The notes under the pieces were generated by a model, which was given only the letters and a program-made list of their open reading frames with translations, did not search any database and had not been told where the DNA came from. Below, piece after piece: positions 7,389-39,554 of a stretch of 42,925 bases of DNA. Each line of letters opens with the position of its first letter. Position 1 is the first letter of the stretch. The position numbers were made by a program, and so were the translations under genes. Source of the DNA: Tepidisphaeraceae bacterium (GTDB lineage Bacteria > Planctomycetota > Phycisphaerae > Tepidisphaerales > Tepidisphaeraceae); NCBI GenBank assembly GCA_035656825.1, contig DASRRR010000110.1, positions 1 to 42,925 of the forward strand, read 5' to 3'.

Positions 7389-7460
7389 GCGGGTGTAATT
7401 CAGTGGTAGAATGCCAGCCTTCCAAGCTGGACGTCGAGGGTTCGAATCCCTTCGCCCGCT
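7389..7460 (+). tRNA. tRNA-Gly (anticodon TCC)
   Basis: Acceptor stem GCGGGTG/CGCCCGC with G-T wobble, D-loop AGTGGTAGA, anticodon stem CCAGC/GCTGG with loop CTTCCAA (anticodon TCC), T-arm GAGGG-TTCGAAT-CCCTT, discriminator T; near-identical in architecture to E. coli tRNA-Gly(UCC). CCA not encoded. Confidence 0.9.
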
Positions 7461-10597: not shown

Positions 10598-10692
10598 TGT
10601 AGTAACCCGGGGTCGTGCGTGCCGGTAAAGATTCTACTACGCTTTGTGCGGCTTGCACGCGAATTGTCGGTACAATCGCCGGAAGGTTTCGC

Positions 10693-11775: not shown

Positions 11776-11785
11776 GGTGTGAACA

Positions 11786-14860: not shown

Positions 14861-14862
14861 CT

Positions 14863-18363: not shown

Positions 18364-18609
18364 AAGCGCTTGCATTGGAAAATTTGGGCGGTACAGTCCC
18401 GCTCTCTCGGGCGGCAACGTGCCCCTGGTGCCACGCACCTTGCAGGGAAGTCGGTGACGGAGCGACACGCTCTTATTCCGACGCGGACGCGCCGCTGTGA
18501 TGGACGTTTCAATCTTTCGGTCGGTATGCCACTGTCCTGATGCGAATCGGGATGGGAAGGTGATCGGAAGACAGTCCTAAGCCAGAAGACCGGCCCGGGA
18601 AACAGGTCT

Positions 18610-18624
18610 GACACAACGTGTGTC
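18610..18624. promoter_or_regulatory. perfect 6-3-6 palindrome GACACA-ACG-TGTGTC nested in an outer GGCCCG/CGGGCC inverted repeat (18592..18629)
   Basis: Directly visible in the intergenic region between the amidohydrolase stop (18363) and the PEP-CTERM gene start (18777). Confidence 0.35.
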
Positions 18625-18776
18625 GGGCCAACCGTATTCGTCCTCGCGATTCGGGACGGCCGGGTCTGGCTTCCAATCCAATTGTGGCTGGTTGTGCGCT
18701 CGCTCTGGCGATGGCGCGCAAGATGCACGTTTGCGTTGGCGCTTGCCCATGGCCTTCCCGCAGGAAGGAGCGACCC

Positions 18777-19721
18777 ATGGGTCGTAGCGCTATTCGGAGC
18801 GGCATCGTTGCCGCTGGTCTGATTCTGGTTGGAAATTCTTCAACCCTGCTGGCGGCAGTCTCTGCGACGGTGGTCCCCGGCACGCTGGTGCAGGGATCGG
18901 TGCAAGCCTCACTCGGGGCGGGCACGACGTACAACAATGAAGGGAGCAATCTTCGTGATTGGCCGCTGGACACGGGTGGGACGGCGACCAACAAGTACGC
19001 CATCAGCCTCACCAATGCCAATTTCAATGGCAATTCCTTTGGCGGGAGCCTGAATTCCATTCTGGCGTTTGGAAATGGAGGCGGCGTGACGCTGAAGTTC
19101 GATTCGCCGATCCATCCGGTCGATGGGCAAAAAGAATTCGGGATCTTCACCGCCCAGATGATCATCGCCTCCAGCGGCGCGATCTTCAGCGGCAACATGG
19201 AGGCCGCAATTCTCGTCAGTGATGATGGAAACAGTTGGTATACGCTGGACGGAGCCTCGGTGGCGTCTCCGACGACGTATGTGGCGACGAGTTACAAGCT
19301 CAATGCGCCGACGATGTCGTATGACTATACGACCTTCGCCAAGGGGTGGACCTACGGATCGCCCGGAACGACGCCGGCAAATCTGAGCGCGCTGGCGGTG
19401 GCGAATTACCAGACACCCATGCCGGATGACTCCCTGTTTAATGGTGCCGGGACCAATGCCCAGCGCTTGGCGCTCAAGACCGACACCTCCACGGCGGATT
19501 ATGACGCAGTCATGGGAACCTCCGGCGGAGGAAACTGGTTCGACATCTCCGGCAGCGGACTGGCCGAGGTGAATTACATTCGCCTTAATGGGGTGAACGT
19601 AGGGACCGGATCATTCAATGGCGACCGCCTGGATGCGGTGTTCGCCAACGCGCTGGCTGTGCCGGAACCAAGCGTGCTGGGCGTGATAATGATGGGAGTG
19701 ATGTTGCGACGTCGCCGGTGA
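18777..19721 (+). CDS. PEP-CTERM sorting-domain protein (secreted, exosortase substrate)
   Basis: GGAAGGAG RBS-like stretch before ATG; signal peptide; C-terminal VPEPSVLGVIMMGVMLRRRR (PEP motif + TM helix + Arg-rich tail). Confidence 0.75.
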   Translation: MGRSAIRSGIVAAGLILVGNSSTLLAAVSATVVPGTLVQGSVQASLGAGTTYNNEGSNLRDWPLDTGGTATNKYAISLTNANFNGNSFGGSLNSILAFGNGGGVTLKFDSPIHPVDGQKEFGIFTAQMIIASSGAIFSGNMEAAILVSDDGNSWYTLDGASVASPTTYVATSYKLNAPTMSYDYTTFAKGWTYGSPGTTPANLSALAVANYQTPMPDDSLFNGAGTNAQRLALKTDTSTADYDAVMGTSGGGNWFDISGSGLAEVNYIRLNGVNVGTGSFNGDRLDAVFANALAVPEPSVLGVIMMGVMLRRRR

Positions 19722-19747: not shown

Positions 19748-19775
19748 GCCCACCGACCGCGGTCGGTGGGCTTTG
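19748..19775 (+). terminator. Rho-independent terminator after the PEP-CTERM gene
   Basis: Perfect 24-nt GC-rich palindrome GCCCACCGACCGCGGTCGGTGGGC followed by TTTGG, 27 nt downstream of the stop codon. Confidence 0.6.
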
Positions 19776-19811
19776 GATGAACATGCACTCTTCCTTAGAG
19801 ACAGGAGCGCC

Positions 19812-20543
19812 ATGCGCGCGTTTACGTTGATTGAATTACTCGTGGTCATGGGGATTGTGGTGGTAGTGATGGCAATCTTGCTACCCGCGCTGGGAATTGC
19901 CCGGCAGTCGGCGCAGCGCGTGCAGTGTTTGAGCAATCTGCGGCAGATGGTGATTGCGGCCAATATTTATGCGGACCGGTTTCATGGGAGTTATCCCATT
20001 GCGTATTATTCAGATAACTCCGGCGGCGTCGTTACAGATTACGCCTGGGATTTGACGACGATTTCAGGAGGAACTGAGCCGACGCGTGTGGTGGCGGGTT
20101 TGCTTTGGGAAGGGAAAGGAGCGGGAGCGATTCAGCAGTGCCCGTCGTTTGATGGAGATGCGAATTGGCTGGTCGATCCGTTTACAGGATACAACTACAA
20201 CACCAGTTATATCGGGCATGGACAGTTTGAGACGGTGGAGGCGCCAGCGAAGATGGTGGCGATCCGCCGGCCGGTCGAGGTGGCGATCTTTGGCGATGGA
20301 CAGTGGGGAGACGGCGCAAATAAGTTTATGCGCGCCCCTTGGCCGAGTGCGGGGGATCTAGGATTCATCGGCCGCTGGGGCGGGACGCAGGGATTTCGCC
20401 ATCGCGGGAAAACCAATGTCGCATTTTGCGACGGCCATGCGGAGTCGTTGGCGGATCGGTTTGTGGAGAATGCCGATGGGGCGGAGAACGTCGCGAAAGG
20501 AACGGGCTTCTTGTCGGCGGATAATCGGGCATATGGGCAGTAG
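19812..20543 (+). CDS. DUF1559 / H-X9-DG domain protein with prepilin-type N-terminal cleavage/methylation leader
   Basis: N-terminus MRAFTLIELLVVMGIVVVVMAILLPAL (type IV pilin-like class III signal); C-terminal RHRGKTNVAFCDGHAESL contains the H-X9-DG motif. This family is abundant in Planctomycetes/Verrucomicrobia. Confidence 0.8.
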   Translation: MRAFTLIELLVVMGIVVVVMAILLPALGIARQSAQRVQCLSNLRQMVIAANIYADRFHGSYPIAYYSDNSGGVVTDYAWDLTTISGGTEPTRVVAGLLWEGKGAGAIQQCPSFDGDANWLVDPFTGYNYNTSYIGHGQFETVEAPAKMVAIRRPVEVAIFGDGQWGDGANKFMRAPWPSAGDLGFIGRWGGTQGFRHRGKTNVAFCDGHAESLADRFVENADGAENVAKGTGFLSADNRAYGQ

Positions 20544-23890: not shown

Positions 23891-24047
23891 GGAATCATTT
23901 CCTATATAGTTCGATTGTTTCCAGTTTGATCGTTCAGCGGCGGGATTAGGCGGGCCGGATGTCTCGGAGCAAATCGCGAAGGAGGATGGTTTCGGAGAGA
24001 TTGTCGCAGGTGTTGCACTCTTCCCAGTCGATCCAGACGTATTCGAT
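23891..24047. repeat. right copy of the ~155-bp direct repeat (authentic 3' end of the isomerase gene)
   Basis: See left copy 22231..22390. Confidence 0.8.
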
Positions 24048-24785
24048 GCCGATCCAGCCGGGGTAGTTTTGGGCGCGCAGGCGGGAGAGGATGTCGTTGT
24101 AATTAATGATGTTGTCCTTGACGGGGCATTGCAGGCGGCCTTTTTTGGCGCCGCGGGCGTGGAAGTGGGAGGCGTAGGGCAAGAGCGGGTGGGCGGCGGA
24201 GTCGGGGAGGCCGGAGCGGGTGAAGTGGGTGTAATCGAGCGTGAGCGTGAGTCCGGGGACGGAGGTGACGAGTTGGAGGGCGCTGGCGGGGTCGGGGGCG
24301 AGGGAGCCGACGTGGGCTTCTACGCCCAGGGTGATTTGGTGAGAGGCGGACTGGGCGACACGCCAGGCGAGTTCATCAGCGGCGCGAGAGAAGGAGGTGG
24401 CCGCGTCTTCGTTGGGATTGAGAATTCCCGGGAGGGTGGTGACGTGGTGGCAGCTCGCGGCGGAGGCGTAGTCGAGGGTTTTGAGGAACGCATCGCGGGC
24501 GTGGGCGCGGCGGGAAGCGTCGGGGTGGTTGATGGCGTAGGGGGTGAAGTCGGGGTCGAGCTGAAGGAAGACGTCGGCGCATTGGAGGTTGAGGTCGGAG
24601 AGTTTGCTGGCGAGGGCGCGGCCGGAGCGTTCGGGGCCGGCGGCGAATTCGCGGCTGGGCCAGAGGTGAGAGCGCTCTTCGAAGAGGCCGATGTCGACGC
24701 CGTCGAGGTTGAGCATGAAGATGAGTTTGAGGACGCTGTCGTGGGGGAGGAGGGGGAAGGTGAAGTCGGCACAGGCTAGTTTCAT
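23946..24785 (-). CDS. sugar phosphate isomerase/epimerase (xylose isomerase-like TIM-barrel protein)
   Basis: MKLACADFTFPLLPHD... typical AP-endonuclease-2/xylose-isomerase-like TIM barrel N-terminus and length (279 aa). Confidence 0.7.
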   Translation of the reverse strand: MKLACADFTFPLLPHDSVLKLIFMLNLDGVDIGLFEERSHLWPSREFAAGPERSGRALASKLSDLNLQCADVFLQLDPDFTPYAINHPDASRRAHARDAFLKTLDYASAASCHHVTTLPGILNPNEDAATSFSRAADELAWRVAQSASHQITLGVEAHVGSLAPDPASALQLVTSVPGLTLTLDYTHFTRSGLPDSAAHPLLPYASHFHARGAKKGRLQCPVKDNIINYNDILSRLRAQNYPGWIGIEYVWIDWEECNTCDNLSETILLRDLLRDIRPA

Positions 24786-29240: not shown

Positions 29241-30494
29241 ATGTCCGAACCGACCATCGCTCCCGAGCCTGATCTGAACCAGCCCCCCAAGGGGGCGCTT
29301 GGCATCATCTTCCTCATTGCCTTAATCGACCTCTTGGGCTTTGGGATCATCATCCCGCTCATGCCCTTTTACGCCAAGATGTATGAGGCGTCCGCGTTGC
29401 AGGTCACCCTCCTCTTTTCCATTTACTCCATCTGCCAATTCATCGCCTCTCCGCTGCTGGGTGTGATCAGCGATCGGTATGGTCGGCGTCCCGTGCTGAT
29501 CCTCTCTCAGATCGGCTCAGCCATTGGCTATGTTCTGCTCGGCGCTGTCACACAGTTCCATTGGACCAGCGCAACGGTCGCACTTCTACTTATCTACACG
29601 TCCCGCATAATCGACGGCATCTCCGGCGGCAATATCTCCACCGCCCAGGCCTATATCTCCGACGTCACCACCGCCGCCAATCGCAGCAAAGGCCTCGGCG
29701 TGATCGGTGCCGCCTTCGGCATCGGATTCACCCTCGGACCCGCCTTCGGAGGCATCCTCGGCGGCATCCACCCCTCTTTCCCCGGCTACGCCGCCGCCTG
29801 CTTCAGCCTCCTCGCCGCCTTCCTGACCTACCTCAAACTCCCCGAATCCCGCCAGCATAAACCCGTCGAAGCCGAAGCCTGGCTGCACCCGCGCGTCTTC
29901 GTACCCATCCTCCGCAAGCGCATCCTCCTCCACCTCCTGCTCATCGGCACCGTCTCCATGGGCGCGTTCGTCATGATGGAATCCACCATTGCCATCTACC
30001 TCGCCCGCGACGACACCTTCCATTGGAACATGACTAAAGTCGGCCTCTACCTCTCCCTCGTCGGCCTGGTCATCGCCGGCGTGCAGGGCGGCTTGATCGG
30101 CCGCCTGACCAAGCTCTTCGGCGAATGGCCCCTCACCCAGACCGGCCCCCTTCTCGTCGCCGCCGGCATGGCGCTCTTCGTCGGCGTCGATTATCACCCG
30201 GTCCTCTACATCCTCATCCCCGCCGGCATCATCAACGCCACCGGCCGCAGCATCACCACCCCCACACTCTACGCCCTCATCTCCAAATCCTGCGCCCCGG
30301 ACGAACAAGGCACCGTCTTCGGGCTCCTCCAAGGCCTCTCCGGCATCGCCCGCGTCATCGGCCCCATCGTCGCCGGCATCGCCTACGAACATCACCCCAC
30401 CAGTCCCTACTGGCTCTCCGGCTCCATCATGCTCGCCGTCATGCTCTGGACAATTTCCGTCCACTCCATGTCCAAACGCACCGTGGCGATCTAA
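29241..30494 (+). CDS. MFS transporter (12-TM, Tet/TCR-like)
   Basis: LGFGIIIPLMPFY, GRRPVLILSQIGSAIGY, motif-A-like loop, 12 hydrophobic segments. Confidence 0.8.
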   Translation: MSEPTIAPEPDLNQPPKGALGIIFLIALIDLLGFGIIIPLMPFYAKMYEASALQVTLLFSIYSICQFIASPLLGVISDRYGRRPVLILSQIGSAIGYVLLGAVTQFHWTSATVALLLIYTSRIIDGISGGNISTAQAYISDVTTAANRSKGLGVIGAAFGIGFTLGPAFGGILGGIHPSFPGYAAACFSLLAAFLTYLKLPESRQHKPVEAEAWLHPRVFVPILRKRILLHLLLIGTVSMGAFVMMESTIAIYLARDDTFHWNMTKVGLYLSLVGLVIAGVQGGLIGRLTKLFGEWPLTQTGPLLVAAGMALFVGVDYHPVLYILIPAGIINATGRSITTPTLYALISKSCAPDEQGTVFGLLQGLSGIARVIGPIVAGIAYEHHPTSPYWLSGSIMLAVMLWTISVHSMSKRTVAI

Positions 30495-31057
30495 ACCGGA
30501 TCGGTAGAATTCCCCGCCGGCAACGACGGCTGATTACCGCCATCCGACATCATTTCGCTTACCACCTCTTTCGTCCGCTTATCATTCAAAAGCTGGCTGA
30601 TCAGCACCCGCCGATACCCCGTGCTGCGAAGCTGCTCCTTAATGGCATCCGTCCGCTCCTGCCGCAGCTTCTCATTCTGCGTGTATAACGCCTCTTCCAG
30701 CGCCTCGTTCTCCAGCAGCAGCGCGTACATCGCCTCCGCCTTTTTCCCGCCCGATGAAAACAACCCGCCAAACCCTGCGGCTTTCTTACGGTATTCCTCC
30801 ACGCGCTGGTTCAGCACCCGCACCTGCTCGGCCAGCGCCTCATTCTGCGCTTTCAGATTCGCCAGCTCCGTCTCATACAGAGTGCGAAATCCCTTCTGCG
30901 TCGTAAACAACTCCTGTTCCTTGGTCGCCAGATTCCGGCGATGCCCCACGCCGGCGAAGAATCGGCCCATCTGGTAGCCAAGGAAGAGAAGCACAATTAC
31001 CACCACCCCCGCGATGACGTAGAAGAGAATTTGGATGAGTTGGCTGTCGAAATGCAT
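30491..31057 (-). CDS. membrane-anchored coiled-coil protein (hypothetical; YhcB/DUF1043-like topology)
   Basis: N-terminal TM ILFYVIAGVVVIVLLFLGY followed by heptad-rich ELANLKAQNEALAEQVRVLNQRVEEYRKK. Confidence 0.45.
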   Translation of the reverse strand: MHFDSQLIQILFYVIAGVVVIVLLFLGYQMGRFFAGVGHRRNLATKEQELFTTQKGFRTLYETELANLKAQNEALAEQVRVLNQRVEEYRKKAAGFGGLFSSGGKKAEAMYALLLENEALEEALYTQNEKLRQERTDAIKEQLRSTGYRRVLISQLLNDKRTKEVVSEMMSDGGNQPSLPAGNSTDPV

Positions 31058-31151
31058 GCAATCATAGTAGCGTCAATCGCCGGATCGGGCAGCGCGGGAT
31101 AGAAGACTTATTTGGGACGTTCTGGCCGCTGGGGTAAAGTCATTGGCTGCG

Positions 31152-31952
31152 ATGAACCAGCCGCTTCCCTCTATCTCGATCGTCACGCCGTCCTACAACC
31201 ACGGGCGATTCATTGATCGAACCATCCAAACTGTCCTGAATCAATCGCTGCCTCCTGTCGAATATCGGGTCATGGACGGCGGATCGACGGATGAAACCAT
31301 CGCCATCCTGAAAAAGTATAGCGACCGCCTGCAATGGGTATCCGAAAAAGACAAAGGACAAGCCGACGCCATCGACCGCGGATTTCGCCAATGCACCGGC
31401 GATATCATTTCCTGGCTCAATTCTGATGATCGTTTCGCCAATGAAAACGTTCTCAAAAGAGTCGCGGAGGCGTTCGCGGCCGATGCAACCGTCGACATCG
31501 TCTACGGCGATGGCGAATTGATCGATCTGGATGGGCACTCTTTCCGGCAATCGCGCGGAGCCGCTGTCAAACAGGCGAAAGAGCTGCTCATCCTCCCGGC
31601 CGGCTTTGCGCTTCAGCCAGCGATCTTCTTTCGCCGGCAACTCTATCTCGATGCCGGCGGAATCGACGGCCGATTCTTTGGCGCATTCGACTATGACCTC
31701 TGGCTCAGAATGTTCGCAAAGGCCCGCCGAGTGACTTATCTCCCCGAAGTCCTCGCCCAGGCGACCTGCCACCCGGACGCTAAATCCGTCAAAGGAATGT
31801 GGCGGCTGATCGGCGAACTCGTCGAAATCAAACGCAAGAACGAACGCCCCTTCGCATTAACCTGGCTTGAGCGCATCCGCATGCGGATCAATGTGCTCGG
31901 TCTCTACGCCTACTACGTCGCCGTGCGCACCGGATTGCGGCGGGCGGTCTAA
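31152..31952 (+). CDS. glycosyltransferase family 2
   Basis: ISIVTPSYNHGRFIDRTIQTVLNQ...YRVMDGGSTDET...DKGQADAIDRG...WLNSDD (DxD). The ORF as listed begins at a TTG (31143); first ATG at 31152. Confidence 0.85.
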   Translation: MNQPLPSISIVTPSYNHGRFIDRTIQTVLNQSLPPVEYRVMDGGSTDETIAILKKYSDRLQWVSEKDKGQADAIDRGFRQCTGDIISWLNSDDRFANENVLKRVAEAFAADATVDIVYGDGELIDLDGHSFRQSRGAAVKQAKELLILPAGFALQPAIFFRRQLYLDAGGIDGRFFGAFDYDLWLRMFAKARRVTYLPEVLAQATCHPDAKSVKGMWRLIGELVEIKRKNERPFALTWLERIRMRINVLGLYAYYVAVRTGLRRAV

Positions 31953-33017
31953 ATGGGAAAACGACTCGGCATCAACCTCGTCTTCCTCAACCCTGACCGC
32001 GCCGGCGGCGCCGAAACCTACGCACGGTCCCTGCTGCGCGAATACCAGCAATTGGACCTCGACCTTGACGGCCGGATAAAACTCTTCGTCGGACGCAGGC
32101 ATGGATTGAATGTCGACCCCGAGCGTTTTGAGCTGGTCGAATGCAACATCAACCCCCGCCATCAATATCGCCGAATCATCTGGGAACAGACGCATCTGCC
32201 CGGCATTCTCAACCGCCATCGGTTGGACGTTGTGCATTTTCCTTATTCGGCCTATCCAATTCGCTATCGCGGGAAATGCGTCGTCTCTCTTCACGACACG
32301 ACGCGCTTCGTCGCACCGCGCGGCGTGCCGCGGGCGCAAATCTGGTATCGCCGCGTGATGGAAGAACGCCTGCGCGACCGCGGCCATCACGTTATCGCCG
32401 TCTCCCATGCCGATGCGGCAATCCTACAGCAGCATTTAGGTCTGCCGGATCAACAGATGTCCGTCGTGTATCACGGCGTGTCTGATCAGTTCCGCGTCGA
32501 ACGCCCTTTTGAAGGAACACGCGACTATCTCCTTTGGGTGGGCCGACCCTACGAACACAAGCGATTGGACACGCTTATCGAAGCCTATGAAATGATGACC
32601 AGCAACGCGCCGAAATTGAGGTTAATCGGCATAAACGATGCTTCACGTTTCAGCGTTGGAGCAAATGTATCCGTTGAAAAAGGCGTCAATCACACGGACC
32701 TGGCTGGTATCTATCAACGAGCACTAGCGCTTGTATTTCCAAGCTCATACGAAAGTTTTGGCTTGCCCGCGCTGGAAGCGATGGCGTCCGGCACAGCGGT
32801 GATCTGTTCCGACATCCCCGCTTTCCGCGAACTGTTCTCCGGAGCAGCGGAATTCACCAAAGTTGCGGATGCCGGCACTCTGGCACAAGGGATCGAAAAG
32901 ATTATTAAAAATCCCGCGCTCAGATGCGAAATGGAATTGAAAGGGATCGAACTCGCCCGGGAATTCACCTGGCGGCGGTGCGCAGAGGAGACGATGCGAA
33001 TCCTCAGGCGCGTTTGA
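31953..33017 (+). CDS. glycosyltransferase family 4 (GT-B, retaining)
   Basis: C-terminal GRPYEHKRLDTLIEAY...FPSSYESFGLPALEAMASGTAVICSDIPAFRELF (EX7E motif). Confidence 0.85.
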   Translation: MGKRLGINLVFLNPDRAGGAETYARSLLREYQQLDLDLDGRIKLFVGRRHGLNVDPERFELVECNINPRHQYRRIIWEQTHLPGILNRHRLDVVHFPYSAYPIRYRGKCVVSLHDTTRFVAPRGVPRAQIWYRRVMEERLRDRGHHVIAVSHADAAILQQHLGLPDQQMSVVYHGVSDQFRVERPFEGTRDYLLWVGRPYEHKRLDTLIEAYEMMTSNAPKLRLIGINDASRFSVGANVSVEKGVNHTDLAGIYQRALALVFPSSYESFGLPALEAMASGTAVICSDIPAFRELFSGAAEFTKVADAGTLAQGIEKIIKNPALRCEMELKGIELAREFTWRRCAEETMRILRRV

Positions 33018-33999
33018 ACTCGGGACGATGAGAAAGAGCCGTCAGCTTGGACCAGGCGCGTATCGTGCGCACACTGAGATACGCCAGCGGGAGGAGCATG
33101 GCGATGCAGAACCCTGACAGGTAGAAAGAGTAGGCGAAGCAGAACGAGGCGTCGTAGACGATAAGCCAGAGGAGGCCGACGAGCATCAGTTGCTGGCCGG
33201 CTTCGCGTGGGGTCGGAAAGCTGCGGCGAATGTAGAACGCGACGCCAAGGAAAACCGCCGCCGCCAGACACGGAATTAAAAGGCCCGGGGTGAGGAGCAT
33301 CACCTGTGAAAACGATCCTTCCGCCGAGCGATGCGCATAGATCGCGAGGATCACGATTGCGTTAATGCTGACCAGCGAAGTCACCACAAACGCCCAGTGA
33401 GCCCGTGTCAGTGGCGGACGCTTTTGCTCCCAGCGATACGCGACCGTCGAAAGGAGCGTAACGTGGTTGAGCAGCAGCAATGGCTGCCATAACACCGGCA
33501 GATGCGGGGCGGGGATGGCGGCGTGGAAAAATCGGATCAGGCCGAGCGTGAGAAGTCCGGGAGCGACCAGATATTTGCCGGCAAAGTCATAAAATGTGAT
33601 GAGCACGATTGCGAAGCAGACGATGATCACCGGGCGCTGGCCGAGCGCCGGAGAGAGCTGCGAATAAAACTCTGCCGAGCCGATCGCCAGTAGTGCCAGT
33701 GCCGCGGCAATGATATGGGCGGTGTTGACGCCAATCCGCCCCGAGGGGAGGGGGCGATGCGCCGCCGTCAAGGCATCGCGGCGGCGGTCGATGATGTCAT
33801 TGAGCGACATACCAAACCCGTATAAGCCAACAGAAAGCAGGACGACAAAGAGCAGCGCCAGCGGCGAAATGGGAAGGCCGGAAAAATGGCGGTGTAGTAC
33901 ATACGCACAGGAGGAATCCGCAATCGCTGTAAAGACCAGCGCCATGCGCGTCAGTTGCAACAGCGGAAGTAAGCGATTGGGAAGACGCATAGTCGGCAC
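33004..33999 (-). CDS. UbiA-family prenyltransferase (integral membrane)
   Basis: NDIIDRRRD (NDxxDxxxD) in first cytoplasmic loop, 8-9 TM segments; alternative start at MALVFT (33945). Confidence 0.75.
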   Translation of the reverse strand: MPTMRLPNRLLPLLQLTRMALVFTAIADSSCAYVLHRHFSGLPISPLALLFVVLLSVGLYGFGMSLNDIIDRRRDALTAAHRPLPSGRIGVNTAHIIAAALALLAIGSAEFYSQLSPALGQRPVIIVCFAIVLITFYDFAGKYLVAPGLLTLGLIRFFHAAIPAPHLPVLWQPLLLLNHVTLLSTVAYRWEQKRPPLTRAHWAFVVTSLVSINAIVILAIYAHRSAEGSFSQVMLLTPGLLIPCLAAAVFLGVAFYIRRSFPTPREAGQQLMLVGLLWLIVYDASFCFAYSFYLSGFCIAMLLPLAYLSVRTIRAWSKLTALSHRPEFKRA

Positions 34000-34058
34000 C
34001 AGACTCCTGATTCAGCCCGGCTTGGCAGGGTGGGGTGTCATGCCTATTGTAGCGAGCT

Positions 34059-34556
34059 ATGAGCATGAAAGCCCCAGCGGCCATTGCAACCCGGATTCCC
34101 TCATCCGCCCGCGTCGGTGTCGTAGCCGCTCGGTTTAATGCCGAGCTGGTCGACGAGCTATTAAAAGGCTGCTTGCAACGACTGAAAGAATTGGGCATTC
34201 CGGCGGCGCGGGTGACGGTGGAGCGCGTGCCGGGGGCGTTTGAACTGCCGGTGGCGGCGCAGGCGTTGTGCCGGACGAAGCGCTATGGGGCGGTGATTTG
34301 TCTGGGAGCGGTGGTGCGCGGGGAGACGCCTCATTTTGATTTCGTGGCGGGCGAATGCGCGCGGGGGATCGCGCGAGTGGGACTGGATGAGAATATGCCG
34401 GTGATTTTTGGCGTGCTGACAACCAACGACGACGACCAGGCCTGGGCCCGCGCCGGCGGCAAACACGGACACGTCGGCAAGCAATCCGCCGAGGCGGCGG
34501 TAGAGATGATCGGCGTGCTGAACCGATTGCGCCCCAAACGGCGGGTGCGGGCATGA
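34059..34556 (+). CDS. ribH: 6,7-dimethyl-8-ribityllumazine synthase
   Basis: VGVVAARFNAELVDELLKGC...VERVPGAFELP...GAVVRGETPHFDFVAGECARG... Confidence 0.9.
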   Translation: MSMKAPAAIATRIPSSARVGVVAARFNAELVDELLKGCLQRLKELGIPAARVTVERVPGAFELPVAAQALCRTKRYGAVICLGAVVRGETPHFDFVAGECARGIARVGLDENMPVIFGVLTTNDDDQAWARAGGKHGHVGKQSAEAAVEMIGVLNRLRPKRRVRA

Positions 34557-35506
34557 AACGCGTGGTGCGGCCTTTGATTTATCGTCTGCAACAATCGTTG
34601 CAACGCCGACGCCAGCAGCGAAAAGTCCAGCAGGCCTTGCGCCGCCGCCAACCCGCGGATCCGATTTTCATCTTCGGCTTATCCCGCAGCGGGTCCACCT
34701 GGCTGCAGGACACCATCGGCGCCTGGCACGGGACGGTTTCACTATTCGAGCCGATTCATAAAAAAAATCCCGAGACCATTGGCGCGTTCACGCTCGAAGA
34801 CTGGCGGCCGGGCCAGCAGATGAGCGCCGACGAGCGCCGCGTGCTCGACTCCATTCTGCGCGGAGAGATTTTAACCAAGCGCATTTTGCCCGCCGGACCG
34901 ATGCCAGATGAAATCAACCGTTTCTGCATCAAGTTAATCCACTGCAACAACGGCATGCCGCGCATGGTGCATGACCTGCGCCCACGCTACCGGCCGCTGA
35001 TCATTCTGCGGCATCCGTGCGCCCATGTTGCATCATGGAAACGGCTGAAATGGACCGAAAATTTCGGCGGCCTCGCCGGTCGATATAACGGCCTGCTGGC
35101 GGCGCACCCGCATTTGCGCGAACCCGTCAGCGGGCTATCAACGCCGCTGGATTGGATGGTCGGAAGCTGGTGCCTGGGAAATTATGTCCCGTTGGCGATC
35201 AAGCCTGCAAACCGGTGGACGGTTGTCCGATATGAATCGTTGTTAGCCGAACCGGAGCGAATTCTCGGAGAGATTTTTGCGACCTGGGGAGAGGCAGCCA
35301 TTCCCGCCGAAGTGCTGGGCGCGGTCGGGCGCGTAAGCCGGACCACCTGGCGAAAGGGGCAACCCGCCGGCGCGGTGGCGACAGCCAATTCCTGGCAGGA
35401 AGAGATCAGCCTCGAGGAGAGCCGACAGGTATTTGAAATCTGCCGACGTTTTGGGGTCGAGGTGGACGCTGGTGGATACATGATGAAATCGGGCGGGATC
35501 GGATGA
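34553..35506 (+). CDS. sulfotransferase-family protein
   Basis: IFIFGLSRSGSTWL (5'-PSB PAPS-binding loop), ...ILRHP... (3'-PB-like); start overlaps ribH stop (ATGA). Confidence 0.7.
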   Translation: MKRVVRPLIYRLQQSLQRRRQQRKVQQALRRRQPADPIFIFGLSRSGSTWLQDTIGAWHGTVSLFEPIHKKNPETIGAFTLEDWRPGQQMSADERRVLDSILRGEILTKRILPAGPMPDEINRFCIKLIHCNNGMPRMVHDLRPRYRPLIILRHPCAHVASWKRLKWTENFGGLAGRYNGLLAAHPHLREPVSGLSTPLDWMVGSWCLGNYVPLAIKPANRWTVVRYESLLAEPERILGEIFATWGEAAIPAEVLGAVGRVSRTTWRKGQPAGAVATANSWQEEISLEESRQVFEICRRFGVEVDAGGYMMKSGGIG

Positions 35507-36894
35507 GCCAGCGACGATCTCCGCCGGGACCTTGGAATCCGCCGCTGACGAGTTTGTGGCGGCAACGTGATCTATTGCGATTCCTTCTGCGAATCGGCTC
35601 GCAATACGGCGACCTCTGGCGCTTCCGCGTCGGCAGGCGAAATTATTATGTCCTCAACCATCCGGATCACATCCGCCAAGTCCTGATCGCCGACGCCTCC
35701 AAGTTCATCAAAGGCCCAGCGATTCGCAATGCGCGCATCACGCTCGGCGATGGACTACTCTCCAGTGAAGGCGACCTGCATAAGCAGCAGCGCCGGCTGA
35801 TTACCCCCGTATTTCATCCCACCCGCGTCGCAACCTACGCGGAGCGAATGGTGCAATGTGCTGAAACCATGTGCGCCCATTGGACTGACGGCCAGGTGAT
35901 CGATCTGCACCAGCGAATGACCGCCCTGACCCTCGACGTCGTCACTCAGGTCCTCTTCGGCGGAGAAATCGGCACCGATGTCGGACGCATCGGTGCTGCG
36001 ATGCACGTCCTGGTGAACATGTTTGACCGCGCAAGAAATCCACTGGCGCCACTGCTGAATAAATTGCCGCTGCCAAGTAATTTCCGGTTTCTGCGTGCGC
36101 TGCGCGAAGTGGAGGCAACGCTTCAGGGATTTATCGAAAACAAAAAACGCGGCAATCGCGATCCGAAAAATCCTCCGGATTTATTAGAACTGCTCCTGGC
36201 GACCGGCGGAATGTCGGATAAGCAATTGCGCGACGAAGCGGTGACGCTCTTCACCGCCGGCCACGAAACAACCGCCAACGCGCTGGTCTGGACGTGGTAT
36301 TTGCTCGCGCAGCATCCCGAGGCAGAGCAAAAGTTCCACGAGGAACTCGACCGTGTGCTTGGAGATCGCCTGGCGCGATCAGAAGACCTGGATCATCTGC
36401 CCTATACGCGCATGGTGCTATCCGAATCGATGCGGCTCTACCCGCCCGCGTGGATCGTGGCGCGCCAGGCGGTGGAGAATTACGAAATCGCCGGCTACCC
36501 CATCGCTGCCGGTTCAGTGCTGCTGATGAGTCAATATCTGATCCACCGCGACCCAAGGTTCTGGGGAGATGACCCGACCCGATTTGATCCAGGCCGATTC
36601 ACCGAAGACGCCAAATCCCAGCGCCCGCGCTGGGCCTACTTTCCCTTCGGTGCCGGCCCACGCTCCTGCATCGGCGAAGGTTTCGCCTGGGTCGAGGCGA
36701 TGCTGCTGCTGGCAACCATCGGCCGGCGCTGGCGCTTGCAACTCGTCGACCCACACCAAACGGTGCATTTGCACGCAACCATCACGTTGCGCCCCGAAAA
36801 TGCCATCCCAATGCGGCTGATCAGACGCAATCCCCCGCCGGGCGTTGCCAGCGTGACCCGCGTCTCTATACTGCCACGCGATGCTGACGGTTAA
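35503..36894 (+). CDS. cytochrome P450
   Basis: I-helix FTAGHETTANAL, ExxR ESMRLYPP, haem-binding FPFGAGPRSCIGEGFA; start overlaps the sulfotransferase stop (ATGA). Confidence 0.9.
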   Translation: MSQRRSPPGPWNPPLTSLWRQRDLLRFLLRIGSQYGDLWRFRVGRRNYYVLNHPDHIRQVLIADASKFIKGPAIRNARITLGDGLLSSEGDLHKQQRRLITPVFHPTRVATYAERMVQCAETMCAHWTDGQVIDLHQRMTALTLDVVTQVLFGGEIGTDVGRIGAAMHVLVNMFDRARNPLAPLLNKLPLPSNFRFLRALREVEATLQGFIENKKRGNRDPKNPPDLLELLLATGGMSDKQLRDEAVTLFTAGHETTANALVWTWYLLAQHPEAEQKFHEELDRVLGDRLARSEDLDHLPYTRMVLSESMRLYPPAWIVARQAVENYEIAGYPIAAGSVLLMSQYLIHRDPRFWGDDPTRFDPGRFTEDAKSQRPRWAYFPFGAGPRSCIGEGFAWVEAMLLLATIGRRWRLQLVDPHQTVHLHATITLRPENAIPMRLIRRNPPPGVASVTRVSILPRDADG

Positions 36895-37381
36895 GGAACG
36901 ACAACGCGTGCGCGAACTGGCGATGCAGGTCCTTTTTGCCTGGGACGCCGCCGGTACGGGCACCGCGGACGAAGCCGCCGCCCGCCAGATCATGCACGAC
37001 GGCAGCGACAACCCCGTCGTGCGCCAGCAAGCGGGCGAACTGGCACTAAAAACCTGGGACCAGCGCGAGATGATCGATCAGCGCCTGGAGCGCTTTGCCC
37101 CGAATTGGCCCCCACGCCGCCAGCCGGCAGTCGATCGCAATCTGTTGCGATTGGCGGTCTATGAACTCACCAACACAACTCTCCCGCCACAGATTTTGAT
37201 CGACGCGGTGATTGAGATCGCCCGCCAATTTTCCACCTCCAACAGCTCCGCGTTCGTCAACGGCGTGCTCGACGCGATCCTCAAAGAACACAACGCCCTG
37301 ATCGCGGGCCTCCCCCCGGCGGTGGTCGAACCCATCCCCGCCCCGACCGAAGGGACCGGCCCCGGAGAAGTCATCGAGTAA
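36881..37381 (+). CDS. nusB: transcription antitermination factor NusB
   Basis: RQRVRELAMQVLFAWDAAG...AVDRNLLRLAVYEL...IDAVIEIARQF...FVNGVLDAI; overlaps P450 3' end by 14 nt. Confidence 0.85.
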   Translation: MLTVKERQRVRELAMQVLFAWDAAGTGTADEAAARQIMHDGSDNPVVRQQAGELALKTWDQREMIDQRLERFAPNWPPRRQPAVDRNLLRLAVYELTNTTLPPQILIDAVIEIARQFSTSNSSAFVNGVLDAILKEHNALIAGLPPAVVEPIPAPTEGTGPGEVIE

Positions 37382-37392
37382 CGCAACACATC

Positions 37393-38346
37393 ATGGGCTT
37401 CTTCTCCAAAACCATCGATAAACTCAAAGGGGCGCTGCGAAAAACCGCCGCCGTCCTGAATACGGACGTGCGCACCCTCTTCGTCCCCGGCCGCCAGATC
37501 AACGACGAGTTCCTCCAGGAAGTCGAAGAAAAACTCCTCCTCGGCGATTTCGGCGTGCAAAACACAATGCGCATCGTCGACGAAATCCGCGACAAATGGC
37601 GCCTCGGCAAAATCCGCAACGCCGGCGAAGCCGAAACCATCGTCCGCGAACAACTCCTCACCGGCTGGGGCGATCCAACATTACGCGAACTCAAATTCGC
37701 CCCCGCGGGCACGCCCACCGTCATCATGGTCTGCGGCGTCAACGGCGCCGGCAAAACCACTAGCATCTCCAAGCTCACCTGGCTCCTCACCCAGCAGATG
37801 CACAAGAAAGTCATGCTCTGTGCCAGCGATACATTCCGCGCCGCCGCCGTCGAGCAGCTTTCCATCTGGGCCGGCCGCCTCGGCGTCGAAATCGTCAAGC
37901 ACAAGATGGGTGCCGACCCCGCCGCCGTCGCCTACGACGCCTGCGAAGCCGCCAAGTCCCGCGGCATGGACGTCCTGATCGTCGACACCGCCGGCCGGCT
38001 GCACACTCAGGACAACCTCATGCGCGAGCTCGCCAAAATCCGCGACGTCATCGCCAAACGCATCCCCGGCGCGCCCCACGAAGTCATCCAAGTCATGGAC
38101 GCCACCGCCGGCCAGAACGCCATCCGCCAGGCGGAAATGTTCCATAAAGCCGTCACGCTCACCGGCCTCTTCGTCGCCAAACTCGACGGCACCGCCAAAG
38201 GCGGCTTCGTCTTCTCCATCCGCGACCAGCTCAAAGTCCCCGTCAAATTCATCGGCCTCGGCGAGACCCCCCAGGACATCGAAACCTTCGACCCCGCTCG
38301 CTTCATTAACGCCCTCTTCGGCGACCCCGGAGCGGCCGAGTCGTGA
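37393..38346 (+). CDS. ftsY: signal recognition particle receptor FtsY (short form without acidic A-domain)
   Basis: MVCGVNGAGKTTSISKL (G1), DTAGR (G3), ...KLDGTAKGG (G4-region). Confidence 0.9.
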   Translation: MGFFSKTIDKLKGALRKTAAVLNTDVRTLFVPGRQINDEFLQEVEEKLLLGDFGVQNTMRIVDEIRDKWRLGKIRNAGEAETIVREQLLTGWGDPTLRELKFAPAGTPTVIMVCGVNGAGKTTSISKLTWLLTQQMHKKVMLCASDTFRAAAVEQLSIWAGRLGVEIVKHKMGADPAAVAYDACEAAKSRGMDVLIVDTAGRLHTQDNLMRELAKIRDVIAKRIPGAPHEVIQVMDATAGQNAIRQAEMFHKAVTLTGLFVAKLDGTAKGGFVFSIRDQLKVPVKFIGLGETPQDIETFDPARFINALFGDPGAAES

Positions 38347-39554
38347 GCGCCCCCGCCACCCAGCGCGACGTCCGCATCGCTTATATCGTCGAAGGAATCG
38401 CCTGCCTCGGCACCAATCTCCTCCTCATCGGCGTCTACTTCTACACCCACTCCCGCCTCGGCTGGACCCTCAAACAAAATTTCCTCCTCGCCACCGGCCA
38501 AGGCCTCGTCGGCGGCGTCGGCTCCCTGCTCGCCCACCCGATCTCCTCCCGCCTCTCCCGCCGCGGCGCCCTCATCGGCATCTACATCGCCATGGCGCTC
38601 CTCCCCGCCATCCTGCTGATGGTCGATTCCGCCGCCGCCATCGCCACGTTGCTCCTGATCTACACGATGGTCGTCAGCCTCAGTTGGCCCATGCTCGAAA
38701 GCTTCGTCGCCACCGGCGTACAACACGAAGAACTCTCCCGCCGCATCGGCATCTACAACCTCGTCTGGTCCGGTGCCGCCGTCCTCATCATCGCCGCCAG
38801 CGGCTGGCTGATTAAGCACATCCCCTCCGCGGTCTTCATCGTCCCACTGGTCGTTCATGCCGTCTCCGCGATCCTGATCATGCTCGTCCGCGAACCGGCC
38901 GACCCGGATGTCGCCCACGAAGCCGTCCACGCCGAACCCGGACTCTTACAACTTCGCCGCCTGGCGCTTGCGCTCTCCCGCGTCTCTCTCCCCGCCACGT
39001 ACGTCGTCATCTACAGCATGATGGCGATGCTTCCCTCATTACCCGCTATCCGCACACTCTCCCCCACCATGGCGACCCTCATCGGCAGCACCTGGATGGC
39101 CGCCCGCTGGCTGACCTTTCTCATCCTCGGCTCGACCGTCTGGTGGCACACCCGCCCGCGCATCCTCGTCGCCGCCGCCATCGCGATGGTCCTCGCTTTC
39201 CTCGGCATCATCCTCCCCGGCTCGCGCGTCTGGATCTGGGCCGGCTCCTCCGACTCTGCCCTGCTCTCCTGGATGATCGCCTCGCAAATCCTCCTCGGCC
39301 TCTGCGTCGGTGCCATCTACGCCGCCAGCCTCTACTTCGGCATGGTCCTCTCCGGCGGCTCGGCTGAACACGCCGGCTACCACGAATCCCTCATCAACTT
39401 CGGCTCCGCCATCGGCCCCATCGCCGGCGTCGTCGCCGAAGTCTGGTACCCCGGCAACATCTACGTCGTCGTCTCCGCCGTCACCGGCGTTGTCGGCCTC
39501 TCGGTCGCCGCCACAGTCTTCACCTCCCTCCTCGCCGGCAAGCGCCAAGCTTAA
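38343..39554 (+). CDS. polytopic membrane protein, probably an MFS-type transporter
   Basis: ~12 hydrophobic segments in 6+6 arrangement; no sharp motif; start overlaps ftsY stop. Confidence 0.45.
   Translation: MSAPATQRDVRIAYIVEGIACLGTNLLLIGVYFYTHSRLGWTLKQNFLLATGQGLVGGVGSLLAHPISSRLSRRGALIGIYIAMALLPAILLMVDSAAAIATLLLIYTMVVSLSWPMLESFVATGVQHEELSRRIGIYNLVWSGAAVLIIAASGWLIKHIPSAVFIVPLVVHAVSAILIMLVREPADPDVAHEAVHAEPGLLQLRRLALALSRVSLPATYVVIYSMMAMLPSLPAIRTLSPTMATLIGSTWMAARWLTFLILGSTVWWHTRPRILVAAAIAMVLAFLGIILPGSRVWIWAGSSDSALLSWMIASQILLGLCVGAIYAASLYFGMVLSGGSAEHAGYHESLINFGSAIGPIAGVVAEVWYPGNIYVVVSAVTGVVGLSVAATVFTSLLAGKRQA

What the first reader, a model, noticed from the sequence alone, without database searches (positions are those of the whole stretch)
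31152..36894. Candidate glyco/prenyl-lipid tailoring locus: GT2 - GT4 - UbiA prenyltransferase - (ribH) - sulfotransferase - P450
Six enzymes of the kinds that together build decorated isoprenoid or glycolipid molecules are packed in <6 kb: polyprenyl(-phosphate) synthesis/transfer by a UbiA enzyme, two sugar transfers, sulfation and oxidation. The locus also has balanced codon third-position composition, unlike the strongly skewed blocks on either side, so it may have a distinct evolutionary origin. The product is not predictable from sequence. Sulfated glycolipids or polyprenyl-linked glycans would be consistent.
Basis: inference. Interest (0 to 1): 0.5.

Follow-up and report, generated by a model that had tools for sequence, protein, structure and literature searches.

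The report
Mosaic envelope-enzyme locus, not one pathway
The six enzyme genes are real, but they sit in three separate transcription units around a conserved housekeeping backbone of a soil planctomycete, and only its closest relatives share the arrangement, so this is more likely accessory lipid and glycan genes dropped into variable slots than one dedicated pathway.

Summary
GT2, GT4, a UbiA-fold protein (on the minus strand), ribH, a PAPS-type sulfotransferase and a P450 lie at 31143-36894. Their third-codon-position composition is balanced, unlike the flanks.

The contig comes from a Tepidisphaeraceae MAG. There are three transcription units: GT2>GT4, <UbiA-like, and ribH>sulfoT>P450>nusB>ftsY>MFS, the last mostly with overlapping stop/start codons.

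I compared about 83 loci from the order, including the window's own contig.
- The UbiA-like gene was the search query, so it is in every locus. Its recurrent partners are ribH (37), nusB (22) and ftsY (20).
- The P450 sits after ribH in 11 loci.
- A GT2 orthologue flanks UbiA in about 10.
- GT4 orthologues occur in one relative, and the sulfotransferase in one relative.
- The gene immediately downstream of UbiA is highly variable: the commonest Pfam family occurs in only 7 of 77 loci.

The UbiA-like protein belongs to an orphan clade. It keeps the first Asp-rich motif, but the second is replaced by Y-x-W-E-x-K-R-P. It scores below threshold for every NCBIfam UbiA-superfamily model that reported a hit; EboC was the best at 76 bits against a cut-off of 250.

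Most likely, P450 and sulfotransferase form a hydroxylate-then-sulfate pair acting on a lipophilic substrate. That step is inferred, not shown. Interest is low to moderate.

The parts
30491..31057 (-). hyp188: 188-aa protein with a hydrophobic N-terminal segment and no family match, transcribed divergently from GT2. Travels with GT2 in the two closest relatives.
   Evidence: ORF. No Pfam or NCBIfam hit. 76% identical orthologues beside GT2 in L003 and L005.
31143..31952 (+). GT2 (GT-A) glycosyltransferase, 269 aa (JGI start 31152, 266 aa). Contains an SDD (DxD-like) motif. Its stop abuts the GT4 start.
   Evidence: PF00535 at 82 bits. Best NCBIfam hits TuaG, EpsD and WcaE, all far below cut-off. 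Orthologues at 38-42% identity flank the UbiA-like gene in about 10 loci, often in an operon with transaldolase and GmhA/GmhB-like genes.
31953..33017 (+). GT4 (GT-B) glycosyltransferase, 354 aa, with an E-x7-E motif. Its 3' end overlaps the 3' end of the UbiA-like gene by 14 nt, tail to tail.
   Evidence: PF00534 and PF13439. An orthologue only in L005 (62%). L003 carries a different GT4 at the same position (27% identity).
33004..33999 (-). Orphan UbiA-superfamily membrane transferase, 331 aa (JGI start gives 328 aa), with about 9-10 TM helices. N67-D-x-x-D71-x-R-R-D75 is intact. The second Asp-rich motif is replaced by Y188-R-W-E191-Q-K193-R194-P195.
   Evidence: PF01040 covers only the N-terminal half. 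AF2 pLDDT 90.7. Foldseek best hits are DGGGPS 7bpu/6m31, ApUbiA, AfUbiA and Rv3806c. hhalign to E. coli UbiA stops at Y188/Y183, exactly before UbiA's DTQYAMVDRDDD. Conservation. EboC 76 bits against a cut-off of 250.
34000..34058 (.). 59-bp divergent intergenic region between the UbiA-like gene and ribH, containing one promoter-like site for ribH.
   Evidence: Sequence. TTGGCA-17-TATTGT at 34022-34050 on the + strand. This is a consensus match only.
34059..34556 (+). ribH, 6,7-dimethyl-8-ribityllumazine synthase (housekeeping riboflavin synthesis). First gene of the operon.
   Evidence: TIGR00114 at 153.7 bits against a cut-off of 84.6. Adjacent to the UbiA-like gene in 37 of 83 loci.
34553..35506 (+). 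PAPS-type sulfotransferase, 317 aa. Carries the 5'-PSB loop (R-S-G-S-T-W) and the 3'-PB motif (R153-x-P...S161). Overlaps the ribH stop by 4 nt. A rare lineage-specific gene.
   Evidence: PF13469 at 31.6 bits. Only 6 homologues among 5.8 billion proteins. Motifs. AF2 model and Foldseek hits almost all sulfotransferase-fold enzymes. Distant homologues lie in polysaccharide clusters. A 49% homologue lies in an unrelated context.
35503..36894 (+). Cytochrome P450, 463 aa, with intact AGHETT, ExxR and FxxGxRxCxG motifs. Overlaps the sulfotransferase stop by 4 nt and the nusB start by 14 nt.
   Evidence: PF00067 at 296 bits. Nearest solved relatives are 7wzl, CYP97A3/C1 carotene hydroxylases, CYP170A1 and CYP46A1. 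Orthologues at about 50% identity follow ribH in 11 loci, counting the window's own.
36881..37381 (+). nusB, a housekeeping gene and the ancestral direct neighbour of ribH.
   Evidence: TIGR01951 at 104.7 bits against a cut-off of 88.35. ribH and nusB are directly adjacent in 7 of 19 loci and in E. coli.
37393..38346 (+). ftsY, the SRP receptor. Same operon.
   Evidence: TIGR00064 at 322 bits against a cut-off of 260.7. Follows nusB in 20 loci.
38343..39554 (+). MFS-type membrane protein. Overlaps the ftsY stop by 4 nt and is the last gene of the packed run.
   Evidence: ORF. PF07690 in the JGI call. Orthologues in L032, L061 and L085.

Best explanation
The locus is a composite rather than one pathway.

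The ancestral backbone of the order Tepidisphaerales here is a monocistronic orphan UbiA-fold membrane transferase, transcribed divergently from the housekeeping operon ribH-nusB-ftsY. Two positions on this backbone are variable slots that hold different cell-envelope genes in different species: the ribH|nusB junction and the region 3' of the UbiA-like gene.

In this species, the ribH|nusB slot holds an older insertion (the P450, shared by about a quarter to a third of ribH-bearing loci) and a recent one (the sulfotransferase, shared only with the nearest relative). The 3' slot holds a GT2-GT4 pair.

Proposed mechanism (inferred):
1. The P450, whose nearest characterised relatives hydroxylate carotenoids, sesquiterpenes and sterols, hydroxylates a lipophilic isoprenoid-type molecule.
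2. The translationally coupled PAPS-type sulfotransferase O-sulfates that hydroxyl. This is the logic proposed for Cyp128/Stf3 in making sulfomenaquinone.
3. Because both genes are embedded in ribH-nusB-ftsY, they would be expressed constitutively.
4. The UbiA-like enzyme may supply the prenylated substrate, but this is unproven.
5. GT2/GT4 most likely serve a separate glycan.

Shown: gene identities, folds, motifs, operon packing and the synteny statistics.
Inferred: substrates, the P450-to-sulfotransferase order, and any link to the UbiA-like enzyme.
For: Organism and gene calls.
Families.
Operon packing, from coordinates: ribH/sulfoT overlap 4 nt, sulfoT/P450 overlap 4 nt, P450/nusB overlap 14 nt, ftsY/MFS overlap 4 nt. 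GT2 and GT4 abut. GT4 and UbiA converge.
Synteny over about 83 loci: the UbiA-like gene is in all by construction, ribH is adjacent in 37, nusB in 22, ftsY in 20.
ribH|nusB junction in 19 loci: 7 directly adjacent, 6 with the P450, 3 with a roughly 500-aa GT-C-like membrane protein (including the isolate Fontivita pretiosa), 1 with a 324-aa protein bearing a weak sub-threshold galactosyltransferase hit.
Two further loci found through the P450 also show UbiA|ribH-P450 without nusB.
The immediate downstream neighbour of UbiA is highly variable; the most frequent Pfam family occurs in 7 of 77 loci.
The sulfotransferase is rare (6 homologues). At this site it is present only in the window and L003.
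P450 relatives act on isoprenoids and sterols.
Sulfotransferase fold and motifs.
The Cyp128/Stf3 precedent is described in PMC6469627.
Against: - No biochemical data exist.
- The sulfotransferase's only homologues with informative context (23-29% identity) lie in polysaccharide clusters next to GT4/GT2 genes. That favours a glycan acceptor and hence a link to GT2/GT4 rather than to the P450.
- A 49%-identical sulfotransferase occurs without any P450 nearby.
- All six genes do stay together in L003, which a single-pathway model explains more simply.
- Glycan-assembly genes are over-represented in the three genes downstream of UbiA. Bac_transf, Wzz, GT2 and GT4 make up roughly 15% of those genes. 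This hints that UbiA-like and glycan genes may be linked after all.
- The window contains no ferredoxin or reductase partner and no PAPS-synthesis genes.
Confidence: 0.5

Rival explanations
1. One dedicated cluster makes a decorated prenyl lipid or polyprenyl-linked glycan. The UbiA-like enzyme makes the lipid anchor, GT2 and GT4 add sugars, the P450 oxidises the product and the sulfotransferase sulfates it. ribH is a passenger.
For: All genes lie within 6 kb. The whole set, plus hyp188, is retained in L003 at 59-76% identity. GT2-UbiA-ribH-P450 are together in L007, L009 and L090. GT-C-like or other glycosyltransferase genes occupy the same slots in other species.
Against: There are three transcription units on two strands. 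L003's GT4 is not an orthologue (27% identity). L005 lacks the P450 and sulfotransferase. Most of the roughly 83 loci carry none of GT2, GT4, P450 or sulfoT beside UbiA. The GT2 orthologues in distant relatives belong to a transaldolase/GmhA/GmhB-type sugar operon. The P450 and sulfotransferase are embedded in a housekeeping operon.
Confidence: 0.15
2. A sulfated-glycan model. The sulfotransferase works with GT2/GT4 on an envelope or extracellular polysaccharide. The P450 and the UbiA-like enzyme are functionally unrelated to it and to each other.
For: Remote sulfotransferase homologues lie directly beside GT4/GT2, Wzx or Wzm/Wzt genes. A 49% homologue lacks a P450 neighbour. The best-scoring Foldseek hits are protein tyrosine sulfotransferases, though small-molecule sulfotransferases also rank high, so fold does not indicate the acceptor.
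Against: The sulfotransferase is translationally coupled to the P450, not to the glycosyltransferases. It is separated from them by the opposite-strand UbiA-like gene and by ribH. The homologues with glycan context are only 23-29% identical.
Confidence: 0.2
3. Pure juxtaposition. None of the five non-housekeeping genes shares a pathway. The slots simply tolerate insertions.
For: Both slots are highly variable. Distant members of the UbiA-like family have unrelated neighbours. An acidobacterial P450 orthologue (51% identity) sits by GT9 and PfkB genes instead.
Against: The 4-nt overlaps between sulfoT and P450 and the joint retention in L003 suggest at least that pair is coupled. UbiA|ribH-P450 persists even where nusB has been lost.
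Confidence: 0.15

Closest known systems
Cyp128 / Stf3 sulfomenaquinone (S881) operon of Mycobacterium tuberculosis
   Same: A P450 and a PAPS-type sulfotransferase are encoded side by side in one operon. The proposed logic is hydroxylation of an isoprenoid lipid tail followed by O-sulfation (PMC6469627). The lipid there is made by a UbiA-superfamily prenyltransferase (MenA), by established knowledge.
   Different: No sequence orthology could be tested. The P450 here is closest to CYP97, CYP170 and CYP46 types. The sulfotransferase has no sequence relative in the PDB or NCBIfam. The pair here is inserted in ribH-nusB. The UbiA-like enzyme is not MenA.
EboC (UbiA-like aromatic farnesyltransferase of the ebo/thallusin cluster)
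   Same: EboC is the only NCBIfam model that aligns over the full length of the UbiA-like protein (residues 14-308, E 2.9e-21). The same holds for distant members of its family.
   Different: The score is 76 bits against a cut-off of 250. No match to an NCBIfam Ebo model among the window proteins scanned and no Pfam hit to the TatD or dehydroquinate-synthase families expected of eboB and eboD; the one PF01261 xylose-isomerase-like protein (23946-24785) scored only on other NCBIfam models, far below cut-off. EboC farnesylates hydroxylated quinolines (bioRxiv 10.64898/2026.05.21.724671).
Canonical UbiA-superfamily prenyltransferases (UbiA, MenA, CyoE/CtaB, ChlG, DGGGPS) and DPPR synthase Rv3806c
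   Same: A 9-10 TM UbiA fold. The first motif N-D-x-x-D-x-x-x-D followed by R-P-L-P-S-G.
   Different: The second Asp-rich motif is absent and replaced by Y-x-W-E-x-K-R-P. Sequence similarity is confined to residues about 45-190. All equivalog scores are far below cut-off.
ribE(ribH)-nusB housekeeping gene pair
   Same: ribH and nusB are in the same order and on the same strand. They are directly adjacent in E. coli and in 7 of 19 Tepidisphaerales loci.
   Different: Here two accessory enzyme genes are wedged between them, with overlapping stop/start codons.

Membership tests
UbiA superfamily (PF01040) | Multi-TM all-helical UbiA fold | tested here: met
   AF2 model pLDDT 90.7 with about 10 helices. 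Foldseek top hits are 7bpu/6m31 DGGGPS, 4od4/4od5, 4tq3-6 and 8j8k, with TM-scores of 0.45-0.63.
UbiA superfamily (PF01040) | First Asp-rich motif N-D-x-x-D-x-x-x-D at the end of TM2 | tested here: met
   N67, D68, D71 and D75 are invariant in 30 close homologues and 17 distant ones.
UbiA superfamily (PF01040) | Second Asp-rich motif (D-x-x-x-D) after TM6 | tested here: not met
   hhalign pairs Y188 with E. coli UbiA Y183. UbiA continues DTQYAMVDRDDD, while this protein continues RWEQKRPPLT. K193 and P195 are invariant and R194 nearly invariant across the family.
UbiA/MqnP (quinone), CyoE, ChlG/BchG, DGGGPS and DPPR synthase equivalogs | Score at or above the NCBIfam curated cut-off | tested here: not met
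   All score 16-40 bits against cut-offs of 180-494, and they align only with residues about 9-147. No dedicated MenA model appeared among the hits, so MenA membership was not directly scored.
EboC | NF035940 score of at least 250 bits, plus eboA/B/D/E/F neighbours | tested here: not met
   76.1 bits. No ebo-like genes among the window proteins scanned.
PAPS-dependent sulfotransferase | Sulfotransferase fold with a 5'-PSB loop and a 3'-PB motif | tested here: met
   PF13469 at 31.6 bits against a cut-off of 27. R-S-G-S-T-W is conserved in five of the six aligned homologues (the sixth is N-terminally truncated), and R153, P155 and S161 are invariant in all six. The 50 listed Foldseek PDB hits are almost all sulfotransferases or sulfotransferase-fold enzymes. 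The model is of moderate quality (pLDDT 77.8, alignment of 6 sequences).
Cytochrome P450 | Heme-thiolate loop F-x-x-G-x-R-x-C-x-G, ExxR, and I-helix AGxxT | tested here: met
   FPFGAGPRSCIG, ESMR and AGHETT are present in the translation. PF00067 at 296 bits.
Cyp128/Stf3-type hydroxylate-then-sulfate module | Adjacent, co-transcribed P450 and sulfotransferase | tested here: met
   4-nt overlap. The same order is seen in L003.
Cyp128/Stf3-type hydroxylate-then-sulfate module | Orthology to CYP128A1 and Stf3, with a menaquinone substrate | not testable with these tools
No solved structures exist, and no NCBIfam hit was found for the sulfotransferase.
Dedicated biosynthetic gene cluster | Co-conservation of the member genes across genomes that carry the core enzyme | tested here: not met
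   Out of about 83 loci including the window's own: full set in 1 relative; P450 in 11 loci; GT2 orthologue in about 10; GT4 orthologue in 1 relative; sulfotransferase in 1 relative.
Lumazine synthase RibH (housekeeping) | TIGR00114 above cut-off and synteny with nusB | tested here: met
   153.7 bits against a cut-off of 84.6. ribH-nusB-ftsY recurs in the order and ribE-nusB in E. coli.

The most novel reading that the evidence does not exclude
The orphan 'KRP-motif' UbiA clade has at least 109 clusters at 50% identity with E<1e-30. On this reading it makes a lineage-specific prenylated or polyprenyl-phosphate-linked envelope lipid in Tepidisphaerales. The P450 that follows ribH in 11 loci hydroxylates that lipid, and in this species the rare sulfotransferase sulfates it. 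That would be a new sulfated isoprenoid lipid class in Planctomycetota, and the first function for a UbiA subfamily that lacks the second Mg2+-binding Asp motif.
Probability: 0.15. Interest if true: 0.55.

Novelty: new member of a known kind. Interest (0 to 1): 0.3.

Why it matters
Nothing here overturns current understanding. Three points are useful.

1. It stops a tidy-looking 'cluster' from being over-read. Two of its genes are insertions in a housekeeping operon, and most of the order lacks the combination.
2. It defines an uncharacterised UbiA subfamily with a changed catalytic signature (Asp motif 2 replaced by E-x-K-R-P). The subfamily is present in every Tepidisphaerales locus recovered, including in a cultured isolate, Fontivita pretiosa, where it can be tested.
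3. A P450 and sulfotransferase hard-wired into ribH-nusB-ftsY would be a rare case of constitutive lipid or glycan sulfation in a free-living soil bacterium.

The by-product may matter more. Some genomes of this order carry an unusually strong strand-linked silent-site GC skew, up to about 0.9, arranged in blocks.

Tried and rejected
- Exact look-up of the 331-aa UbiA ORF found nothing, because JGI starts the gene 3 codons later. The 328-aa form worked.
- The metagenome scan with the P450 returned only 5 loci at 40% identity, none with ribH or UbiA. It was uninformative.
- Contexts of two distant UbiA-family members showed a type ISP restriction enzyme and ThiE-like genes. No clue emerged. Cluster look-up gave no taxon names.
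- A PDB sequence search for the sulfotransferase found nothing. The PDB profile search for the UbiA-like protein matched only residues 45-133.
- The ebo-cluster hypothesis was rejected. The score is below cut-off and there are no ebo neighbours.
- No Rfam family, FMN riboswitch included, reached its gathering score at ribH; the only hits in the window are a cobalamin riboswitch and a tRNA elsewhere.
- Recent horizontal transfer as the cause of the balanced composition is not supported. ribH and UbiA share it, and L003 has the same island.
- A coding-strand (codon-usage) explanation of the skew was rejected for the order. Neighbours on opposite strands have anticorrelated skew.
- Literature searches for PDB 7WZL and for GC skew in Tepidisphaerales found nothing relevant.

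Full report
**Source and gene content.** The window is nearly all of a 43.4-kb contig of a Tepidisphaeraceae MAG (Planctomycetota, Phycisphaerae). It corresponds to JGI 3300036781 Ga0376653_0001275, and identical genes were assembled independently from SRR11833507.
- GT2, 31143-31952 +
- GT4, 31953-33017 +
- UbiA-family protein, 33004-33999 on the minus strand
- ribH, 34059-34556 +
- a sulfotransferase-like protein, 34553-35506 +
- a P450, 35503-36894 +

The run does not stop there. nusB (36881-37381), ftsY (37393-38346) and an MFS gene (38343-39554) follow on the same strand.

**Transcription units.** The coordinates show three units.
- GT2 and GT4 abut (31952/31953).
- GT4 and the UbiA-like gene converge and overlap by 14 nt.
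- The UbiA-like gene and ribH diverge across 59 bp, which contains one promoter-like match for ribH.
- ribH, sulfotransferase, P450 and nusB overlap by 4, 4 and 14 nt. ftsY follows after 11 nt, and the MFS gene overlaps ftsY by 4 nt.

The sulfotransferase and the P450 are therefore physically embedded in a housekeeping operon. ribE(ribH)-nusB is the adjacent pair in E. coli as well.

**Are the weak calls real?**
- The sulfotransferase has only a 31.6-bit Pfam hit, over its N-terminal P-loop. It has no NCBIfam or PDB sequence match.
- Its few homologues conserve R-S-G-S-T-W (5'-phosphosulfate loop) and R153-x-P...S161 (3'-phosphate motif).
- An AF2 model (pLDDT 77.8) retrieves almost only PAPS-dependent sulfotransferases or sulfotransferase-fold enzymes among its 50 listed Foldseek PDB hits.
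- The P450 has the AGHETT, ExxR and FxxGxRxCxG signatures. Its nearest solved relatives are 7wzl, the plant carotene hydroxylases CYP97A3/C1, CYP170A1 and CYP46A1, all of them isoprenoid or sterol oxidisers.

**The UbiA-like protein.**
- Pfam matches only residues 42-154. A PDB profile search matches only residues 45-133.
- The AF2 model is confident (pLDDT 90.7) and has the UbiA fold. Its best hits are DGGGPS 7bpu/6m31, then ApUbiA, AfUbiA and Rv3806c.
- The first Asp-rich motif (N67-D-x-x-D71-x-R-R-D75) and the following R-P-L-P-S-G are invariant.
- The second Asp-rich motif is missing. hhalign pairs Y188 with Y183 of E. coli UbiA and stops there. UbiA continues DTQYAMVDRDDD, whereas this protein continues RWEQKRPPLT. 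K193 and P195 are invariant and R194 nearly invariant, down to 24% identity.
- Every NCBIfam equivalog that reported a hit (UbiA, MqnP, CyoE, ChlG/BchG, DGGGPS, DPPR synthase) scores far below its cut-off, and no dedicated MenA model appeared among the hits. Only EboC aligns over the full length, at 76 bits against a cut-off of 250. No ebo genes are nearby.
- An exhaustive profile search finds 109 clusters (50% identity) at E<1e-30 and 573 at E<1e-10. Ten distant full-length members are equally orphan.

**Comparative genomics.** A genome scan with the UbiA profile gave 80 species-level loci. All are Tepidisphaerales/Phycisphaerae-type MAGs except the isolate Fontivita pretiosa. Together with the encoding-contig look-ups, about 83 loci were tabulated by tblastn and ORF clustering.
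- ribH is adjacent to the UbiA-like gene in 37 loci, nusB in 22 and ftsY in 20.
- The nearest relative (L003, UbiA 65% identical) keeps nusB-P450-sulfoT-ribH | UbiA | GT4-GT2-hyp188. Its GT4 is only 27% identical, a non-orthologous replacement.
- L005 (UbiA 64%) keeps ribH | UbiA | Mem_trans-GT4-GT2-hyp188 but has no P450, sulfotransferase or nusB there.
- Beyond these, the sulfotransferase and the GT4 orthologue are absent.
- The immediate downstream neighbour of UbiA is highly variable. Across 77 loci the commonest Pfam families are Mem_trans (7), pyrophosphatase (6), GT2 (6) and GT4 (3).
- The second and third downstream genes include an EPS-type set (Bac_transf 8, Wzz 6) and GT2 (6).
- GT2 orthologues in distant relatives sit with transaldolase and GmhA/GmhB-like genes.

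**The ribH|nusB junction.** In 19 loci containing both genes:
- 7 have them directly adjacent,
- 6 hold the P450,
- 3 hold a roughly 500-aa GT-C-like membrane protein with a weak PMT_2 hit (including Fontivita),
- 1 holds a 324-aa protein with a weak sub-threshold galactosyltransferase hit.

Two loci found through the P450 itself again show UbiA | ribH-P450, one of them with GT2, but without nusB downstream. A 51%-identical acidobacterial P450 lies by GT9 and PfkB genes instead. The P450 is thus an old, patchily retained occupant of this slot. The sulfotransferase is a recent addition.

**The sulfotransferase elsewhere.** Only six homologues were found in 5.8 billion proteins. A 49%-identical copy lies between SRAP-like and PabB-like genes. 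The 23-29% homologues lie inside polysaccharide clusters next to GT4/GT2, Wzx or Wzm/Wzt genes. This is the main evidence against a lipid acceptor.

**Composition.**
Locus genes have GC3 of 0.63-0.73 and GC3 skew of -0.33 to +0.21. The strongly skewed flanking genes have GC3 of 0.77-0.88 and skew of -0.46 to -0.83.
- The cause is not obviously foreign origin. Housekeeping ribH and the order-wide UbiA-like gene share the balanced composition.
- L003 shows the same low-GC3, low-skew island.
- Each gene's closest relative is L003 or L005, apart from GT4.
- In this order, silent-site skew is a property of DNA-strand blocks. Adjacent genes on opposite strands have anticorrelated coding skew (r = -0.64, n = 279; 35 of 36 strong pairs opposite in sign). 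Same-strand neighbours correlate (r = +0.68).
- Amplitude ranges from about 0 in Fontivita to -0.6 to -0.93 at 4-fold sites across 21 kb of L020. Bulk GC skew is -0.26 to -0.36 in L020 and about 0 in Fontivita (L061).
- The window itself flips sign several times. This remains unexplained.

**Conclusion.** The single-pathway interpretation is weakly supported.
- The best reading (about 0.5) is a mosaic: an ancestral backbone (orphan UbiA-like gene | ribH-nusB-ftsY) with two variable slots.
- In this species those slots hold a P450 plus sulfotransferase pair and a GT2-GT4 pair.
- I commit to P450 hydroxylation followed by PAPS-dependent O-sulfation of a lipophilic, probably isoprenoid, substrate. 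This follows the Cyp128/Stf3 sulfomenaquinone precedent (PMC6469627).
- A link to the UbiA-like product is possible but unproven. GT2/GT4 most likely serve a separate glycan.
- The rivals, with their tests, are the full six-gene pathway (0.15), a sulfated-glycan model pairing the sulfotransferase with GT2/GT4 (0.20), and pure juxtaposition (0.15).

Noticed in passing
whole window; L020, L033, L053, L078, L005, L021, L061: Extreme block-wise GC skew at silent sites that is linked to the DNA strand, not to the coding strand. On the + strand of the window, GC3 skew runs -0.70 (1.5-3.7 kb), +0.46 to +0.77 (3.9-17 kb, genes on both strands), about 0 (17-20.5 kb), -0.55 (22.9-23.9 kb), +0.6 to +0.8 (23.9-27.1 kb), -0.26 to -0.59 (27.8-33 kb), about 0 (33-36.9 kb), then -0.2 to -0.78 (36.9-42.2 kb). 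In relatives the 4-fold-site skew reaches -0.93 over 21 kb (L020) yet is about 0 in the isolate Fontivita pretiosa. Across 279 adjacent opposite-strand gene pairs, r = -0.64. No literature was found and the cause is unknown.
   Followed up: partly
window 10615-17031 (+): An HlyD-type adaptor, an AcrB-type RND pump and a GH92 glycosidase have mirror-image codon endings compared with most genes of the window (G3 skew +0.5 to +0.76, T3 >> A3). They are nevertheless genuine genes (ACR_tran 740 bits, GH92 550 bits). They share the DNA-strand skew of the adjacent minus-strand SNF2 helicase and VWA genes.
   Followed up: partly
L061 7764-9314, L049 7818-9302, L085 7956-9452: In three species, including the cultured Fontivita pretiosa, the ribH|nusB slot holds a roughly 500-aa membrane protein with weak GT-C similarity (PMT_2 / DolP-mannose mannosyltransferase) instead of a P450. 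A UbiA-like gene next to a GT-C gene recalls the mycobacterial DPPR-synthase and arabinosyltransferase logic.
   Followed up: partly
L007, L012, L046, L057, L058 (genes just beyond the UbiA-like gene): GT2 orthologues (38-42% identity) in more distant relatives sit in a run with a transaldolase/FSA gene and SIS (GmhA-like) or HAD (GmhB-like) genes. This suggests a heptose-type sugar pathway rather than a prenyl-lipid one.
   Followed up: partly
L006 6996-7541 and about 5-7 other loci: An inorganic pyrophosphatase gene lies immediately downstream of the UbiA-like gene in 6-8 species. Canonical UbiA enzymes release pyrophosphate, so this may or may not be a coincidence.
   Followed up: no
L003 5338-6468: The GT4 at the position equivalent to the window's GT4 is only 27% identical, while the flanking GT2 is 65% and hyp188 is 76%. 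This is a non-orthologous glycosyltransferase replacement within an otherwise conserved arrangement.
   Followed up: partly
window 18392-18612 (+): A cobalamin riboswitch (RF00174, 74 bits) lies directly upstream of a 367-aa ORF with no Pfam match (18618-19721). That ORF is followed by a DUF1559/SBP_bac_10 protein (19773-20543).
   Followed up: no
window 7389-7460 (+): A tRNA-Gly(TCC) gene lies between the SNF2-family helicase gene (3913-7320, minus strand) and the VWA-domain gene (7475-10597, minus strand).
   Followed up: no
L088 6001-8796: A 51%-identical P450 in a Pyrinomonadaceae (Acidobacteriota) MAG lies beside Trm112p-like, GT9 (heptosyltransferase) and PfkB-kinase genes. This P450 family is therefore not confined to Planctomycetota or to the ribH context.
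   Followed up: no
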